A DNA stretch of 6,152 bases, taken from a virus. The notes under the pieces were generated by a model. The model searched no databases and was not told the origin of the DNA. It saw only the letters and a list, made by a program, of their open reading frames with translations. The translations under genes and the position numbers were made by a program. Location: IMG/VR virus record IMGVR_UViG_3300045988_001503, positions 1 through 6,152 of that record. One strand, given 5' to 3'. Shown piece by piece: positions 2,507 through 5,271 of the stretch; the first letter of the stretch is position 1; each line of letters opens with the position of its first letter.

Positions 2507-2607
2507 ACATTGCTATTCGTTGTCTTATATTTTTATCTATCATCTATTTTTGTTGTGAATATTTGATTTTGCGAAATATTTTGACTCTCGGTAGTAAAAT
2601 AATATTA

Positions 2608-2838
2608 CGTATACATTCTTTAGGACTAGAAGCCCATCGCGGCGTTTGAGCGATATACACCCGCCGCCCGCGTAGGGCCTGGTCTAAAAATGGAGCGGAG
2701 CGACTTCCTTATAGGAGCGCCCCGCTCCGGTATTTTAGCACGGAGTGCGCAAAGGCAGGTTCTATCTGACCTGCCGTGCTTATACCCCCTCCTGTATCCA
2801 TCTACTTGTTAATTAAGCGAAGCCCCTAGTTGTATACG
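2608..2838 (+). other. GC-rich multi-hairpin noncoding module. It is a candidate ssDNA complementary-strand origin (ssi-like) or a structured RNA.
   Basis: Closing stem: CGTATACA (2608-2615) plus ACTAG (2625-2629) pair with the contiguous CTAGTTGTATACG (2826-2838), leaving a 9-nt bulge on the 5' side. Hairpin A: GCCC 2632-2635 pairs with GGGC 2675-2678, and GCGGCG 2639-2644 pairs with CGCCGC 2662-2667. Hairpin B (2692-2728): GGAGCGG/CCGCTCC, GCG/CGC and TCCT/AGGA with loop TAT, 14 bp in total. Hairpin C (2737-2780): AGCAC plus GGCAGGT pair with the contiguous ACCTGCCGTGCT, with a 12-nt bulge GGAGTGCGCAAA. The direct repeat GAAGCCC (2629-2635 and 2819-2825) abuts both arms of the closing stem. 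No track ORF lies wholly within this gap on either strand; the only one reaching it, 2283..2558, merely runs in from within VP2. Confidence 0.6.
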
Positions 2839-2843
2839 AAGTA

Positions 2844-2866
2844 AATTCGAGTTATCCTCTCGAATT
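2844..2866 (+). repeat. Perfect 8-bp inverted repeat hairpin followed by a pyrimidine tract. It may be a terminator-like element or part of the structured module.
   Basis: AATTCGAG (2844-2851), loop ttatcct, CTCGAATT (2859-2866), then ctctctcttcttgtc. There is no clean U-tract, so assignment as an intrinsic terminator is weak. Confidence 0.35.
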
Positions 2867-2916
2867 CTCTCTCTTCTTGTCTATAAACGTACAACTCACA
2901 CTCTACGGTAGGATCT

Positions 2917-2926
2917 AAAAAAAAAA
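2917..2926. repeat. A10 homopolymer tract flanked by GGAT on both sides.
   Basis: The sequence is ggatct-aaaaaaaaaa-ggattt. It ends 8 nt upstream of the -33 element of the predicted promoter. Confidence 0.9.
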
Positions 2927-2934
2927 GGATTTCT

Positions 2935-2966
2935 TTTGGAATTATAAAAAATAGTTTTTATATTTG
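2935..2966 (+). promoter_or_regulatory. Bacteroidetes sigma-A type promoter with -33 TTTG and -7 TAnnTTTG elements. It would drive the small-gene cassette and probably VP4.
   Basis: TTTG lies at 2935-2938 and TATATTTG at 2959-2966, separated by a 20-nt spacer. This matches the published Bacteroides fragilis promoter consensus (-33 TTTG, -7 TAnnTTTG). The next ATG-initiated gene starts at 3011, after an AT-rich leader with no Shine-Dalgarno sequence. Confidence 0.55.
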
Positions 2967-3010
2967 CTCCCAGTTAGAAGTTACAATCATTATTAACATT
3001 TTAAACTCTT

Positions 3011-3211
3011 ATGATTATGCAAAAATTTATTATTTCAGTTAAAGCAAAAGTTACTGGTCATGATGTTGTTCCGCCTTATATCGTTAATTCTCTCGATGGT
3101 CTTGGAACTTATTCTGAGCGAATGTCTTCGTTGGGTTTTATCGTTATTGTGGATTCGATTAAAGAGGAAAACGATTTTGTTTATTTTAAATCTCAAGATA
3201 ATGAAGAGTAA
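3011..3211 (+). CDS. Hypothetical protein, 66 aa, with an acidic C-terminus.
   Basis: This is the first ORF after the predicted promoter. Its T-ending codon bias (gtt, ggt, tct, act, gat) matches the phage genes. Its stop (TAA 3209-3211) overlaps the next ATG (3201) by 11 nt. I recognise no motif. Confidence 0.55.
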   Translation: MIMQKFIISVKAKVTGHDVVPPYIVNSLDGLGTYSERMSSLGFIVIVDSIKEENDFVYFKSQDNEE

Positions 3212-3284
3212 TAATATTTGGAAAATTGTGATTGGTGCTGTATCTGCTGCACTAGGTTATATTCTTAATGCTATTGGACTATGA
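3201..3284 (+). CDS. 27-aa single-pass membrane peptide, a candidate holin-like or membrane-lesion partner of the peptidase.
   Basis: The internal ATG at 3201 of track ORF 3060..3284 gives MKSNNIWKIVIGAVSAALGYILNAIGL. This has a short N-terminus with two Lys, followed by a hydrophobic segment of about 19 residues. Its stop TGA (3282-3284) overlaps the peptidase ATG (3281-3283) as ATGA, the classic arrangement for translational coupling. The upstream part of the track ORF (3060-3200) is the +1 frame of the 66-aa gene and is probably not coding. Confidence 0.45.
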   Translation: MKSNNIWKIVIGAVSAALGYILNAIGL

Positions 3285-3589
3285 ATTGTACTCTTATGCA
3301 TTTTTTTGAATACCTGTTGTATTCTAATGTCCATTTTTCGGTAACTAGCGCTAGACGAACTCCCGAACAAAATAAGGCTTGTAATGGCGCTCCGAATTCT
3401 CAGCATCTTGTGGGTGAAGCTATTGATATTAAACCTTATGGTTCTACTTCGTTTAGTAAGTTGCTCGAAATGATTCATTCTTTCTCTGATAATGTTTCGC
3501 CATTCGATCAGCTCATTATATATCCGGCATTTATTCATGTTTCATTCTGTTCTCGTAATCGTAGGCAGGTAATAGATAAACGTAAATAA
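3281..3589 (+). CDS. Zinc D,D- or L,D-peptidase of the M15 family (Peptidase_M15_3 / YcbK-like fold), a probable endolysin of 102 aa.
   Basis: The block VTSARRTPEQNKACNGAPNSQHLVGEAIDI matches the family signature (S/T)GYR(S/T)PxxNxxxGGxxxSxHxxGxAxD. His42 is at 3404-3406 and Asp49 at 3425-3427, giving H-x6-D. A distal FIHVS contains His86 (3536-3538) at the position of the third metal ligand. There is no signal peptide or cell-wall-binding domain. Confidence 0.8.
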   Translation: MNCTLMHFFEYLLYSNVHFSVTSARRTPEQNKACNGAPNSQHLVGEAIDIKPYGSTSFSKLLEMIHSFSDNVSPFDQLIIYPAFIHVSFCSRNRRQVIDKRK

Positions 3590-3591
3590 TT

Positions 3592-5271
3592 ATGAATTAT
3601 TCTCCCGATTTGATTAAGGCTGTTGATCATTGTCAGCATCGTTCTTTTATCACAAATAGATATAATGGCGCCCGCATTGCTGTAGATTGCGGTCAATGTG
3701 ATTATTGTATTCATAAGAAATCCCAAAAAGCGTCCATGCGTGTGAAGACCGCTGGAAGTGCTTTTAAGTATTCTTATTTCGTTACACTTACTTATGATAA
3801 TGAACATGTTCCTCTTATGGCTTGTAAGGTTTTACATAGTGATTATGATGACGCTCTAGGCATTTCGGGAGATATTCATTTTGGCCATGAATGTCATAAA
3901 TATATTCCTGTTTCTGAATATCAATGTGATGATGACTCCGTGCTGCGTCATATATTCTTCGAGCAAGTACAAGGTACAGTGCCGTTTGACCGTGAGATTA
4001 AGGAATATGCTCCTGTTAAGGATAATTGGTTTCTTAGTATGGCTGCTATTCGTAGTTTTATCTATAAGACGCAATCGGTTGACAAAACGGATTATCCCGT
4101 TTCTGAACAATATGGTCGTGATAACCTTATTCCCTTTTTGAACTATGCTGATGTTCAGAATTATATTAAAAGATTACGTAAATATTTATATAAACAGTTA
4201 GGTTCTTATGAAACGCTACATTTCTACGCTGTCGGTGAGTACGGCCCTGTGCATTTCCGTCCGCATTATCATATCTTATTATTCACGAACTCGGAAAAAG
4301 TCTCAAAGGTATTACGATACTGTCACGATAAGAGTTGGAAATTCGGTCGTTCAGATTTCCAGCTTGCCCGAGGTGGAGCTTCTTCGTACGTTTCGAGTTA
4401 CGTTAATAGCCTTAGTTCTACTCCCTTATTATATCGCTCATGCCGCGCGTTTAGACCCAAGTCGCGTGCGTCTGTCGGATTCTTTGAGAAAGGTTGCGAT
4501 TTCGTGGAAGGTGAAGAACCTTATGCGCAGATTGAGCAAAAAATCGATTCTGTCGTTAATGGAAGAGTCTATAACTTCAACGGTCTCAGTATTCGGTCAG
4601 CTCCACCCATGTCGTATATCCGTACCTTATTGCCCAGATTCTCGTCTGCTCGCAATGACGATAGTATTGCGATTGCTCGAATTCTTCGCGCTGTACACTC
4701 AACGCCAAAGAGAATTGCAAAATTTGGATTCATCGACTATAAACAGGACTCAGTCTTAAGTCTTGTTCGTACTTATTATCAATATCTCAAAGTTCAGAAT
4801 ATTCTTACAGATGATGATAAAATTATATTACATGCTTCTCGGTGTCTTACTAGGTTCTGCAACAGTTCTAGCGATGTCGATATTGAGTCTTATATTAATA
4901 AGCTGTATCGGCTGTTCCTATATGTCCATAAGTTCTTCCGTAACTGGCATTTGCCTTCCTTTGGCTGTAATATTGATTCTTATGCCGGTCGTATTATGTT
5001 TATCATTAAGACAGGTATAGAATATGAGAAGAAGAAGAATTATGAAGATTTGCGAAGTGTATATGGCCTTCGTTCCCAATACCCTGAACTCTCGGATTGT
5101 ATGTTCGTTCTACCTGCGAACGGCCAAGAGTCAGATGTCTTACAGTCTGTTTCACGTGAAACGTCTCAGCTCCTTGAGCAACTCCGGTACCGTAGTGCAA
5201 CATTCTGTCGTGATATGATTAAGCATAAGAAACTTAATGACGCTAATAATATTTTCAATCGTATGGTTTAA
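3592..5271 (+). CDS. VP4: Replication initiation protein VP4, an HUH rolling-circle endonuclease (phiX174 A analogue), 559 aa.
   Basis: RCR motif 1 is FVTLTYD (3778-3798). Motif 2 (HUH) is PHYHILLF, with HYH at 4264-4272. Motif 3 has the double tyrosine YVSSYVNS, with Tyr266 at 4387-4389 and Tyr270 at 4399-4401. The N-terminal Cys/His cluster HCQH...CGQCDYCIHKK is typical of gokusho/alpavirus Rep proteins. Confidence 0.92.
   Translation: MNYSPDLIKAVDHCQHRSFITNRYNGARIAVDCGQCDYCIHKKSQKASMRVKTAGSAFKYSYFVTLTYDNEHVPLMACKVLHSDYDDALGISGDIHFGHECHKYIPVSEYQCDDDSVLRHIFFEQVQGTVPFDREIKEYAPVKDNWFLSMAAIRSFIYKTQSVDKTDYPVSEQYGRDNLIPFLNYADVQNYIKRLRKYLYKQLGSYETLHFYAVGEYGPVHFRPHYHILLFTNSEKVSKVLRYCHDKSWKFGRSDFQLARGGASSYVSSYVNSLSSTPLLYRSCRAFRPKSRASVGFFEKGCDFVEGEEPYAQIEQKIDSVVNGRVYNFNGLSIRSAPPMSYIRTLLPRFSSARNDDSIAIARILRAVHSTPKRIAKFGFIDYKQDSVLSLVRTYYQYLKVQNILTDDDKIILHASRCLTRFCNSSSDVDIESYINKLYRLFLYVHKFFRNWHLPSFGCNIDSYAGRIMFIIKTGIEYEKKKNYEDLRSVYGLRSQYPELSDCMFVLPANGQESDVLQSVSRETSQLLEQLRYRSATFCRDMIKHKKLNDANNIFNRMV

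What the first reader, a model, noticed from the sequence alone, without database searches (positions are those of the whole stretch)
2608..2838. Discrete GC-rich three-hairpin module closed by a long-range stem, inside a 504-nt noncoding gap of a 6-kb microvirus
Microvirus genomes are tightly packed, yet 2507-3010 (8 % of the genome) is not covered by any credible ORF on either strand. Within this gap, about 200 nt (2631-2830) are about 56 % GC by my hand count, and 59 % over 2631-2800. The 100 nt upstream (2521-2620) are about 23 % GC. The GC-rich stretch also abandons the T-rich composition of the rest of the + strand. It folds on paper into three strong hairpins at 2632-2678, 2692-2728 and 2737-2780. 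These are enclosed by a 13-bp closing helix: 2608-2615 plus 2625-2629 pair with 2826-2838. Both the closing helix and hairpin C have a continuous 3' strand and a 9-12-nt bulge on the 5' strand. A GAAGCCC direct repeat sits immediately inside both arms of the closing helix. A C-rich single-stranded run, CCCCCTCC (2785-2792), could pair with the GGAG of the hairpin C bulge (2742-2745) to form a pseudoknot. My leading hypothesis concerns the packaged strand, which in Microviridae is the + strand. The module may be a complementary-strand origin or single-strand initiation signal. It would be analogous to the multi-hairpin DnaG-dependent origin in the F-G intergenic region of phage G4, or to the PriA-dependent primosome assembly site of phiX174. 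No such element has been defined for gokusho/alpavirus-type phages. Three alternatives remain open. It could be a structured phage-encoded ncRNA or leader, since a weak TAnnTTTG match lies at 2545-2552 upstream. It could be a folded-ssDNA recombination site like the forked hairpin attP of CTXphi. It could also be a host-derived insertion.
Basis: partly seen in the sequence, partly recalled or inferred. Interest (0 to 1): 0.78.

Follow-up and report, generated by a model that had tools for sequence, protein, structure and literature searches.

The report
Conserved folded-DNA control region of gut microviruses

Summary
It is conserved in about 130 distinct microvirus sequences, so it is neither a chimera nor host DNA. 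The proposed architecture fails. The 13-bp closing helix is complementary in only 1 of 96 homologues. Hairpin C is really two hairpins, and hairpin A's long stem is contradicted. The gap is modular: accessory hairpins A and C, a terminator-like hairpin B, an insertion hotspot, then module D (2806-2905), an A-tract and a Bacteroidetes-type promoter. D is a three-way junction with 99.3% of cells paired and 11 of 19 pairs compensated. It also occurs in the cultivable Bacteroides fragilis phage phiHBP1, whose Rep is 31% identical. The gaps of three lineages carry a plus-strand-specific excess of GCGNAGC-type DNA mini-hairpin words. Such words also lie at or beside annotated origin features in the G4 and phiX174 records. 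Best reading: replication-origin signals in folded ssDNA. Whether D serves complementary-strand or viral-strand initiation is unresolved, and function is untested.

The parts
2507..3010 (+). Single large intergenic region between the pilot-protein gene (VP2, 1418-2506) and the operon that ends with Rep (small ORF 3011, M15 peptidase 3281-3589, Rep 3592-5271)
   Evidence: ORF list; Pfam hits for M15 and Rep; VP2 named from annotated relatives
2626..2685 (+). Module A: GC-rich hairpin cluster. Supported helices are A1 (2636-2639/2651-2654) and A2 (2666-2669/2675-2678). A competing long-range pairing, 2632-2635/2675-2678, is kept by one variant (L011). The module is absent from L114, and modules A-C are absent from L122, L127, L132 and L138.
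   Evidence: 2639/2651 is G-C 90, A-T 6, C-G 2; 2669/2675 is C-G 97, T-A 3
2692..2738 (+). Module B: terminator-like hairpin. The local stem 2714-2719/2723-2728 (loop CCC) is followed by GGTATTTTAG (2729-2738). An alternative longer stem is 2692-2698/2722-2728. The module contains the GCGGAGC word at 2695-2701.
   Evidence: Terminator scan. 2715/2727 is G-C 62, A-T 35. 2698/2722 is G-C 98, A-T 6 in the first alignment. L122, L127, L132 and L138 have a plain hairpin plus T-run in place of modules A-C, and L114 keeps B followed by a longer T-run.
2738..2748 (+). Module C1: mini-hairpin GCAC-GGA-GTGC
   Evidence: 2740/2746 is A-T 77, G-C 23, with no exceptions
2749..2779 (+). Module C2: hairpin with helices 2749-2751/2777-2779 and 2754-2760/2769-2775
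   Evidence: Five compensated pairs, for example 2758/2771 A-T 52, G-C 48
2780..2805 (+). Variable linker and insertion hotspot at the 5' edge of module D. Relatives carry insertions of 31 nt (MG945572) and about 170 nt (L011). L132, which lacks modules A-C, carries a similar sequence just upstream of D.
2806..2905 (+). Module D: universally conserved three-way junction. Its parts are P0 mini-hairpin GCGAAGC (2817-2823), P1 (2828-2834/2890-2896), P2 mini-hairpin ACGAAGT (2836-2842), P3 (2844-2851/2859-2866, loop TTATCCT), single-stranded J (2867-2889, ending CTTGTCTATAAACG) and a 3' tail CACACTCTA.
   Evidence: 125 distinct sequences, 99.3% of cells paired, 11 of 19 pairs compensated, 0 of 500 shuffles as good, slid controls 21-41% paired. 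The covariance model finds D in mar56, L143, L128 and all nine phiHBP1-lineage genomes.
2917..2926 (+). A-tract (10 A; the length varies among relatives)
2935..2966 (+). Bacteroidetes-type promoter motif: TTTG (2935-2938), a 20-nt spacer, then TATATTTG (2959-2966), 44 nt before the ATG at 3011
   Evidence: Read from the sequence. Both boxes are invariant or nearly so in the 10-sequence alignment. The consensus TTTG/TAnnTTTG is from my own knowledge.

Best explanation
The 504-nt gap is the phage's cis-acting control region, and its conserved hairpins work mainly in the folded single-stranded (+) DNA as replication-origin signals.

Module D (2806-2905) is the core. It is a three-way junction that carries two GCGAAGC-type DNA mini-hairpins and conserved unpaired stretches. 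Together with the other mini-hairpins of the gap, it would stay folded when host SSB coats the incoming genome. That would mark the site where host priming machinery starts the complementary strand, as at the G4 origin or RSF1010 ssiA. The viral Rep may also act there.

The GC-rich hairpins A and C are replaceable accessories. Hairpin B also, or instead, ends the structural-gene transcript.

Shown here: conservation, the pairings, the modularity, the folding strand for A-C, and the motif excess. Inferred: every functional assignment.
For: - Conservation above the genome-wide level in 35 GenBank records and well over 100 IMG/VR contigs.
- Module D: 99.3% of cells paired and 11 of 19 pairs compensated.
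- D is kept in a lineage whose Rep is only 31% identical, and that lineage has its own compensatory changes.
- Nearly all changes in D are strict Watson-Crick swaps: 3 G.T cells of 2,375.
- P2 fits C-GNA-G or C-GNNA-G in 117 of 125 sequences: GCGAAGC, CCGAAGG, ACGAAGT, GCGAAAGC, CCGGAGG and others.
- Mini-hairpin words in the gap, + strand versus - strand: 4/0 (window), 6/2 (phiHBP1), 8/0 (mar56). Shuffles give about 0.6; P = 0.002, <0.0002 and <0.0002. The density is 5-40 times that of the rest of each genome, and GNA is the commonest triloop class in each.
- The review PMC13037366 states that these words form extraordinarily stable DNA hairpins, that the RNA versions are much weaker, that they bind SSB poorly, and that they occur at the G4, St-1 and alpha3 priming sites and in RSF1010 ssiA.
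- Checked on the records: G4 has GCGAAAGC inside the annotated primer region. phiX174 has GCGAAGC in the F-G gap and CCGAAGG beside the (+) origin.
- G.T wobbles in A-C lie on the + strand.
Against: - No experiment exists, and the + strand is also the mRNA-sense strand.
- Module D alone is not unusually stable (z about -1.6).
- Mini-hairpin words occur at origins of both polarities, and only one or two occur at each classical origin. The motif is suggestive, not diagnostic.
- Chp2 shows no enrichment.
- D has no significant similarity to any mapped origin.
- D sits just upstream of a promoter, so a transcriptional role is possible.
- Eight of 125 P2 variants do not fit the mini-hairpin class.
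Confidence: 0.45

Rival explanations
1. Module D is the viral-strand (+) origin, the site where Rep binds, nicks and later re-joins the strand. The lineage-specific GC-rich hairpins upstream (A and C here, different ones in phiHBP1 and mar56) are the complementary-strand origin.
For: D is universal and conserved across lineages, whereas the upstream hairpins are replaceable. From my own knowledge, this mirrors coliphages, where the (+) origin is shared and the (-) origins differ. D is AT-rich (37% GC), with weak stems and invariant unpaired stretches such as CTTGTCYAT. It lies next to the promoter of the Rep operon in both lineages. The phiX174 (+) origin is flanked by a CCGAAGG mini-hairpin. 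The 5' edge of D is an insertion and module-swap hotspot. Strict Watson-Crick stems would also suit extrusion from duplex DNA.
Against: Similarity to the phiX174 and M13 origins is no better than for shuffled queries, and the best alignments fall elsewhere. In phiX174 the origin lies inside the Rep gene, and a phiX-like word also exists inside this Rep gene at about 4886-4900, which is unresolved. No nick-site data exist for this Rep family.
Confidence: 0.2
2. The elements act as RNA. They would form the structured 3' end of the structural-gene mRNA (terminator plus protective hairpins), or a regulatory or processing element for the downstream operon.
For: In close relatives the pilot-protein (VP2) annotation ends 0-1 nt before the conserved block, so the element would be co-transcribed. 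Hairpin B with GGUAUUUUAG scores as terminator-like. L122, L127, L132 and L138 have a plain hairpin plus T-run in place of modules A-C. G.U wobbles occur on the sense strand. The RNA fold has z -4.3.
Against: There is no Rfam match even at E up to 10. D lies downstream of the terminators, with no Bacteroidetes promoter motif before it. D has almost no G.U pairs. Its loops belong to a class that is stable as DNA but weak as RNA. Near-invariance of about 100 nt across lineages is more than a terminator or stabiliser needs.
Confidence: 0.2
3. Module D is a duplex-DNA binding site for a phage or host protein that controls the adjacent promoter of the Rep operon, or a DNA-condensation or packaging contact.
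For: The position relative to the A-tract and promoter is fixed in both lineages. The stems are perfect inverted repeats at the DNA level.
Against: Compensatory changes that preserve pairing while changing the sequence argue for a folded strand, not a sequence-specific duplex site. From my own knowledge, microviruses need no packaging signal.
Confidence: 0.08
4. The region is a folded-ssDNA recombination site (CTX-type attP), a host-derived insertion or an assembly chimera.
For: Only the local GC excess and the hairpins.
Against: The genome-collection scan gave one hit, and it has no profile match. No plasmid match was found. The element is present in many independent assemblies from dog, lemur, human and marmot samples and in an isolate. 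The phiHBP1 authors found no lysogeny (PMC13064476).
Confidence: 0.03

Closest known systems
Complementary-strand origins of coliphages G4, St-1 and alpha3 (DnaG-dependent), and the primosome site in the phiX174 F-G gap
   Same: A non-coding gap of a microvirus holds several hairpins in the packaged strand. A GCGNAGC- or GCGNNAGC-type mini-hairpin lies at the site. This was checked on the G4, alpha3 and phiX174 records and is described in PMC13037366.
   Different: There is no sequence similarity. The architecture differs: a three-way junction plus a cluster of 4-8 mini-hairpin words, against one word per site in the coliphages. The host phylum differs. The enzyme that would recognise it is unknown.
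Intergenic region of filamentous phages (M13/f1)
   Same: One gap of about 500 nt combines a terminator hairpin, complementary-strand origin hairpins and the viral-strand origin. The Rep proteins share a Pfam family (REP_ORF2-G2P). The M13 layout is from my own knowledge.
   Different: The resemblance of D to the gene II protein binding site is not significant. No Bacteroidetes promoter-like boxes were seen inside the hairpins, so an RNA-polymerase-primed origin of the M13 type is not indicated.
Single-strand initiation signals and single-strand origins of plasmids (RSF1010 ssiA/ssiB; ssoA/ssoU types)
   Same: These are orientation-specific folded-DNA elements of about 40-300 nt. ssiA contains a CCGAAGG mini-hairpin, which is also the second commonest P2 variant here.
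   Different: No homology, and no plasmid match. The phage encodes no primase of its own.
Conserved intergenic hairpins predicted in reekeekee- and roodoodoo-microviruses (PMC9865509)
   Same: These are conserved gap hairpins with compensatory substitutions. The authors tentatively linked them to negative-strand initiation and said this could not be certified.
   Different: They come from different clades, are single short hairpins, are unrelated in sequence, and no mini-hairpin motif or multi-module layout was reported.

Membership tests
Any Rfam RNA family, tRNA or tmRNA | Covariance-model match at or near the family's gathering score; ARAGORN detection | tested here: not met
   The best hit in the region is mir-383 at 21.7 bits against a gathering score of 70, E 0.33. 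ARAGORN finds no gene.
DNA mini-hairpin motif class (GCGNAGC / GCGNNAGC) | A C-G pair closing a GNA or GNNA loop, with a further complementary pair outside it | tested here: met
   Window words: 2695 GCGGAGC, 2740 ACGGAGT, 2817 GCGAAGC, 2836 ACGAAGT. P2 fits in 117 of 125 sequences, and its outer pair is compensated as G-C, C-G or A-T.
DNA mini-hairpin motif class (GCGNAGC / GCGNNAGC) | Extraordinary thermal stability and poor SSB binding of the folded DNA | not testable with these tools
   These are properties reported for synthetic oligonucleotides (PMC13037366). A-T-closed variants such as ACGAAGT may be weaker.
G4-type (DnaG-dependent) complementary-strand origin | Sequence homology to the G4, St-1 or alpha3 origin hairpins | tested here: not met
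   Distant-mode BLAST searches of the phage collection return only this microvirus clade and mar56.
G4-type (DnaG-dependent) complementary-strand origin | Primase starts an RNA primer at a defined site on SSB-coated ssDNA | not testable with these tools
   This requires in vitro priming or primer mapping.
phiX174 / M13-type viral-strand origin | Similarity to the mapped Rep recognition and nick sequence | tested here: not met
   The best local alignments of D to the whole phiX174 and M13 genomes are not at the origins. P = 0.19-1.0 against shuffled queries.
phiX174 / M13-type viral-strand origin | Site-specific cleavage by the phage Rep protein | not testable with these tools
   This requires a Rep cleavage assay or nick mapping.
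Intrinsic (factor-independent) terminator, for hairpin B | A GC-rich hairpin followed directly by a T-rich run on the sense strand, downstream of an operon | tested here: inconclusive
   The scan flags 2714-2728 plus GGTATTTTAG, but the T-run is short. L122, L127, L132 and L138 have a plain hairpin plus T-run in place of modules A-C, and L114 keeps B with a longer T-run.
Bacteroidetes sigma-A promoter, for 2935-2966 | TTTG at about -33 and TAnnTTTG at about -7, separated by roughly 19-21 nt (consensus from my own knowledge) | tested here: met
   TTTG 2935-2938, a 20-nt spacer, TATATTTG 2959-2966. Both boxes are conserved. phiHBP1 has TATGTTTG before the Rep ATG. Activity is not tested.
CTX-type folded-ssDNA attP / temperate microvirus | Integrated copies in host genomes with junctions in the element | tested here: not met
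   One hit in 185,579 species genomes, with no profile match. No lysogeny was found for phiHBP1. Only one 21-nt word from hairpin A was scanned.

The most novel reading that the evidence does not exclude
Bacteroides-infecting microviruses use a previously undescribed origin design. It has a conserved folded-DNA three-way junction (module D) flanked by a cluster of SSB-resistant GCGNAGC mini-hairpins, read by the Bacteroidota priming machinery, by Rep, or by both. A strand-specific cluster of such mini-hairpin words would then be a general, sequence-only predictor of origin regions in uncultured ssDNA phages. phiMH2K also shows the enrichment.
Probability: 0.35. Interest if true: 0.7.

Novelty: new variant of a known kind. 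Interest (0 to 1): 0.55.

Why it matters
Microviruses are among the most abundant phages of the human gut. Yet everything known about how they start DNA replication comes from E. coli phages. For Bacteroides-type microviruses, neither origin has been located.

This analysis narrows the search to about 100 conserved bases with a defined, testable structure. It also shows that the same element is present in phiHBP1, a phage that can be grown on Bacteroides fragilis, so direct experiments are possible.

It gives comparative evidence that DNA mini-hairpins, so far studied mainly as a chemical curiosity, are under selection in nature. It also flags annotated 'hypothetical proteins' that overlie this region in public records. 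At least the 136-aa phiHBP1 entry is probably spurious.

Tried and rejected
1. Rfam at E up to 10 and ARAGORN: nothing.
3. Host origin or prophage: the one genome-collection hit (a soil MAG) has no profile match, and neither do two hits of the hairpin-A word and eight of the module-D word in large viral contigs. There is no plasmid match.
4. An apparent natural deletion in L021 was my own artefact. I had wrapped a linear contig that ends inside the element.
5. Similarity of D to the M13 gene II protein site and to the phiX174 origin looked persuasive by eye, but it failed an unbiased local-alignment test.
6. A phiX-like word inside Rep (about 4886-4900): it is conserved, but so are its surroundings, which also carry an overlapping ORF. 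Inconclusive.
7. Coding potential of 2690-2812: the start codon is not conserved.
8. Rep-based sampling with a three-lineage alignment returned only close relatives. The mar56 Rep query returned nothing.
9. Folding energy of D alone is unremarkable.
10. Using G.T frequency to separate RNA-level from DNA-level modules: it depends on which alternative pairing is accepted for hairpin B, so I did not rely on it.
Full report
WHAT THE WINDOW IS. The window is a circular microvirus genome with a 77-nt terminal overlap, giving a unit length of 6,075 nt. All genes are on the + strand. A 5'-cut ORF at 60-953 continues, through the terminal overlap, the reading frame that opens at about 5289. I take this to be the major capsid protein (VP1), as annotated in relatives. 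Next come an ORF at 954-1418, the pilot protein VP2 at 1418-2506, the 504-nt gap, a small ORF at 3011-3211, an M15 peptidase at 3281-3589 and Rep at 3592-5271 (Pfam REP_ORF2-G2P). Gene identities rest. The closest records are uncultured faecal microviruses from dog, lemur and human samples, about 70-81% identical genome-wide.

CHECK OF THE OBSERVATION. The gap is ORF-free. Its one 40-codon ORF (2690-2812) has ACG in place of ATG in a third of relatives. The stretch 2600-2845 folds better than dinucleotide shuffles, with z -4.3 (RNA +), -4.0 (DNA +) and -4.8 (RNA -). Rfam at E up to 10 and ARAGORN find nothing. The 13-bp closing helix is a perfect complement in this window.

CONSERVATION. A distant-mode BLAST search found the gap in 35 phage records at 78-85% identity. 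That is at or above the genome-wide level, and the conserved block runs from about 2618 to 3007. Exact-word scans of IMG/VR with a hairpin-A word and with a module-D word, followed by a profile search, gave about 130 distinct homologous sequences. The single hit in the 185,579-species genome collection, and the hits in large viral contigs, have no profile match and are chance matches. No plasmid carries the element. A chimera or a host-derived insertion is therefore excluded.

- The 5' arm of the closing helix (2608-2615) lies outside the conserved block. It is complementary to the 3' arm in 1 of 96 distinct homologues.
- The 3' arm instead pairs with 2890-2896. Relatives show six complementary versions of this helix: GTTGTG/CACAAC, GTTGCG/CGCAAC, GTTCAA/TTGAAC, GTTCGA/TCGAAC, GTTGTA/TACAAC and GTTGTC/GACAAC.
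Six pairs of hairpin A vary only by breaking. The outer stem of hairpin C is 79.6% paired with no compensation.
- A structure of short local hairpins gives 97.6% and 126 cells, and every helix has at least one compensated pair. These hairpins are A1 (2636-2639/2651-2654), A2 (2666-2669/2675-2678), B (2714-2719/2723-2728), C1 (2738-2741/2745-2748) and C2 (2749-2751/2777-2779 plus 2754-2760/2769-2775).
- Some alternative pairings keep partial support: the long stem of B through 2698/2722, and GCCC/GGGC in A through variant L011. A and B may therefore be bistable, which I could not resolve.
- The proposed pseudoknot partners and the first GAAGCCC copy are not conserved.

THE GAP IS MODULAR. In L122, L127, L132 and L138, hairpins A-C are replaced by a plain hairpin plus T-run after VP2. 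L114 keeps only B, followed by a longer T-run. A simple scan flags 2714-2728 plus GGTATTTTAG as terminator-like. B is therefore probably the terminator of the structural operon. Insertions of 31 and about 170 nt occur just before 2806. What every complete genome retains is module D (2806-2905), then an A-tract (2917-2926), then TTTG (2935-2938), a 20-nt spacer and TATATTTG (2959-2966). These boxes match the Bacteroidetes promoter consensus as I know it, and they are conserved.

MODULE D. D is a three-way junction:
- P0 (2817-2823, GCGAAGC)
- P1 (2828-2834/2890-2896)
- P2 (2836-2842)
- P3 (2844-2851/2859-2866, loop TTATCCT)
- a 23-nt pyrimidine-rich single strand, J, ending CTTGTCTATAAACG
- a 3' tail CACAC

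On 125 distinct sequences, 99.3% of cells pair and 11 of 19 pairs show changes on both sides. No shuffle of 500 does as well, and slid controls give 21-41% pairing. Only 3 of 2,375 cells are G.T.

A covariance model of D finds it in the marmot virus mar56 (72.8 bits), in L143 and L128, and in phiHBP1 (40.4 bits, E about 5e-8). phiHBP1 is described as the first isolated Bacteroidota-infecting microvirus, and its host is B. fragilis (PMC13064476). Its Rep is 31% identical to the window's. All nine genomes of that lineage have D 40-90 nt upstream of the Rep start codon, with their own compensatory changes: ACTTTCG/CGAAAGT versus ACTTTTG/CAAAAGT, and CCGG versus TCGG/CCGA. The phiHBP1 gap has the same order: terminator hairpin, GC-rich hairpins, D, A-tract, TATGTTTG, Rep ATG. 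An annotated 136-aa hypothetical protein with no Pfam match lies over it. By energy alone D is unremarkable (z -1.5 to -1.7).

MINI-HAIRPIN WORDS. P2 varies as follows:

| P2 variant | Sequences |
|---|---|
| GCGAAGC | 58 |
| CCGAAGG | 30 |
| ACGAAGT | 11 |
| GCGAAAGC | 10 |
| CCGGAGG | 5 |
| CCGTAGG, CCGAAAGG, CCGTAAGG | 1 each |

So 117 of 125 fit C-GNA-G or C-GNNA-G. The review PMC13037366 says that GCGNAGC and GCGNNAGC form extraordinarily stable DNA hairpins. It also reports that the RNA versions are much weaker (r(GCGAAAGC) has a Tm of 39 C) and that such hairpins bind SSB poorly. They occur at the G4 primer site (GCGAAAGC), in St-1 and alpha3 (GCGTTAGC), in RSF1010 ssiA (CCGAAGG) and in N4 hairpin promoters (GCGGAGC).

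I counted such words, requiring one further complementary pair outside the C-G pair:

| Gap | + strand | - strand | Gap + strand per kb | Rest of genome + strand per kb | P vs 5,000 shuffles (mean about 0.6) |
|---|---|---|---|---|---|
| window | 4 | 0 | 7.9 | 1.4 | 0.002 |
| phiHBP1 | 6 | 2 | 14.6 | 0.3 | <0.0002 |
| mar56 | 8 | 0 | 13.5 | 0.7 | <0.0002 |

GNA is the commonest of the 16 triloop classes in each gap. The middle base differs between lineages (GAA and GGA here; GCA and GTA in mar56). The motif class, not one particular sequence, is therefore maintained.

Calibration on annotated records:
- G4 has GCGAAAGC at 3977, inside the annotated primer region 3970-3997.
- alpha3 has GCGTTAGC in its G-H gap.
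- phiX174 has GCGAAGC at 2358 in the F-G gap. PMC9865509 places the hairpin recognised by the primosome ahead of gene G. phiX174 also has CCGAAGG at 4333, beside the (+) origin at 4306.
- M13 has two of its four + strand words in the intergenic region.
- phiMH2K has 7 of 14 words in its two gaps.
- Chp2 has none in its gaps.

The words therefore mark origin regions of both polarities. They are suggestive, not diagnostic.

WHICH STRAND, AND WHICH MOLECULE. In A-C, the wobble pairs lie on the + strand and would be A.C mismatches on the - strand. Examples are G2749.T2779 in 10 sequences, T2635.G2675 in 19, and G2693.T2727 in 35 if the long B stem forms. The + strand is both the packaged DNA and the mRNA sense, so this does not separate DNA from RNA. 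The DNA reading is favoured by the loop class, by the near-absence of wobble in D, by D lying downstream of the terminators with no promoter motif before it, and by the absence of any Rfam match. These are inferences.

MINUS OR PLUS ORIGIN. By eye, D resembled the M13 gene II protein site and the phiX174 origin. An unbiased local alignment of D against both whole genomes put the best hits elsewhere, with scores no better than shuffled queries (P 0.19-1.0), so I reject that similarity. A phiX-like word inside Rep (about 4886-4900) sits in a generally conserved stretch that also holds an overlapping ORF, and it is uninformative. The pattern seen here, a universal D with lineage-specific, replaceable GC-rich hairpins upstream, would fit D as the Rep site and the hairpins as the (-) origin. 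It fits equally well with D as a host-read priming site. I cannot decide between these, and I give the (-) origin reading only a modest edge.

PRIOR WORK. Three full-text searches found no description of this element. PMC9865509 predicted conserved gap hairpins with compensatory changes in unrelated small microviruses and tentatively linked them to negative-strand initiation.

VERDICT. The feature is real and conserved. It is most likely the replication-origin region of Bacteroides-type microviruses acting as folded ssDNA. I class it as a new variant of a known kind, with function untested. It is now directly testable in phiHBP1.

Noticed in passing
window 4763-5020 (+ strand, +1 frame inside Rep 3592-5271): An 85-codon ORF that overlaps Rep stays open over its full length in 88 of 122 distinct homologues, against 11 for the third frame. 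The surrounding 4761-4940 is unusually conserved at all codon positions. It may be an overprinted gene, as with the genes nested in phiX174 gene A.
   Followed up: partly
window about 4886-4900: TCTTATATTAATAAG inside Rep resembles the phiX174 (+) origin core CTTGATATTAATAAC. It is conserved, but no more so than its neighbours, so whether it is a cis element is open.
   Followed up: partly
L148 (phiHBP1, PV598014) 2326-2736; also CDS features over the element in OP549867 and Dulem virus 242: Annotated 'hypothetical protein' genes lie over the conserved non-coding element. The phiHBP1 one has no Pfam match, and in the window the homologous region has no ORF longer than 40 codons. At least the phiHBP1 annotation is probably spurious.
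   Followed up: partly
window about 2780-2806; L011, L132 and L002 at the homologous place: The junction just 5' of module D is a hotspot for insertions. MG945572 has a 31-nt insertion and L011 one of about 170 nt. L132, which lacks modules A-C, has a similar sequence just upstream of D.
   Followed up: partly
L208 (Bdellovibrio phage phiMH2K) 2786-3031 and 3287-3515: Seven of the 14 + strand mini-hairpin words of this gokushovirus fall in its two intergenic gaps, which make up about 10% of the genome. Only one - strand word falls there. Chlamydia phage Chp2 shows no such enrichment.
   Followed up: no
L122, L127, L138 and L114, between the terminator T-run and module D: Genomes that lack hairpins A-C share a short conserved string, TTTTTCCGAAAGTA(T)CG, which contains a CGAAAG core. 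Its role is unknown.
   Followed up: no
L004 and L008 (Dulem virus 254 and 255), locus 168-400: These relatives carry an extra segment of about 160 nt, with a small annotated ORF, between VP2 and the conserved element.
   Followed up: no
L024 and L108 (7.1-7.3 kb contigs): Each holds two slightly different copies of the element about 5.8-6.1 kb apart. This suggests longer-than-unit assemblies that merge two strains, not true duplications.
   Followed up: no
L143 (4,074-nt contig), upstream of module D: A divergent module D is preceded by what looks like an ORF on the opposite strand, with its own TAnnTTTG box. That would be unusual for a microvirus. The contig is incomplete.
   Followed up: no
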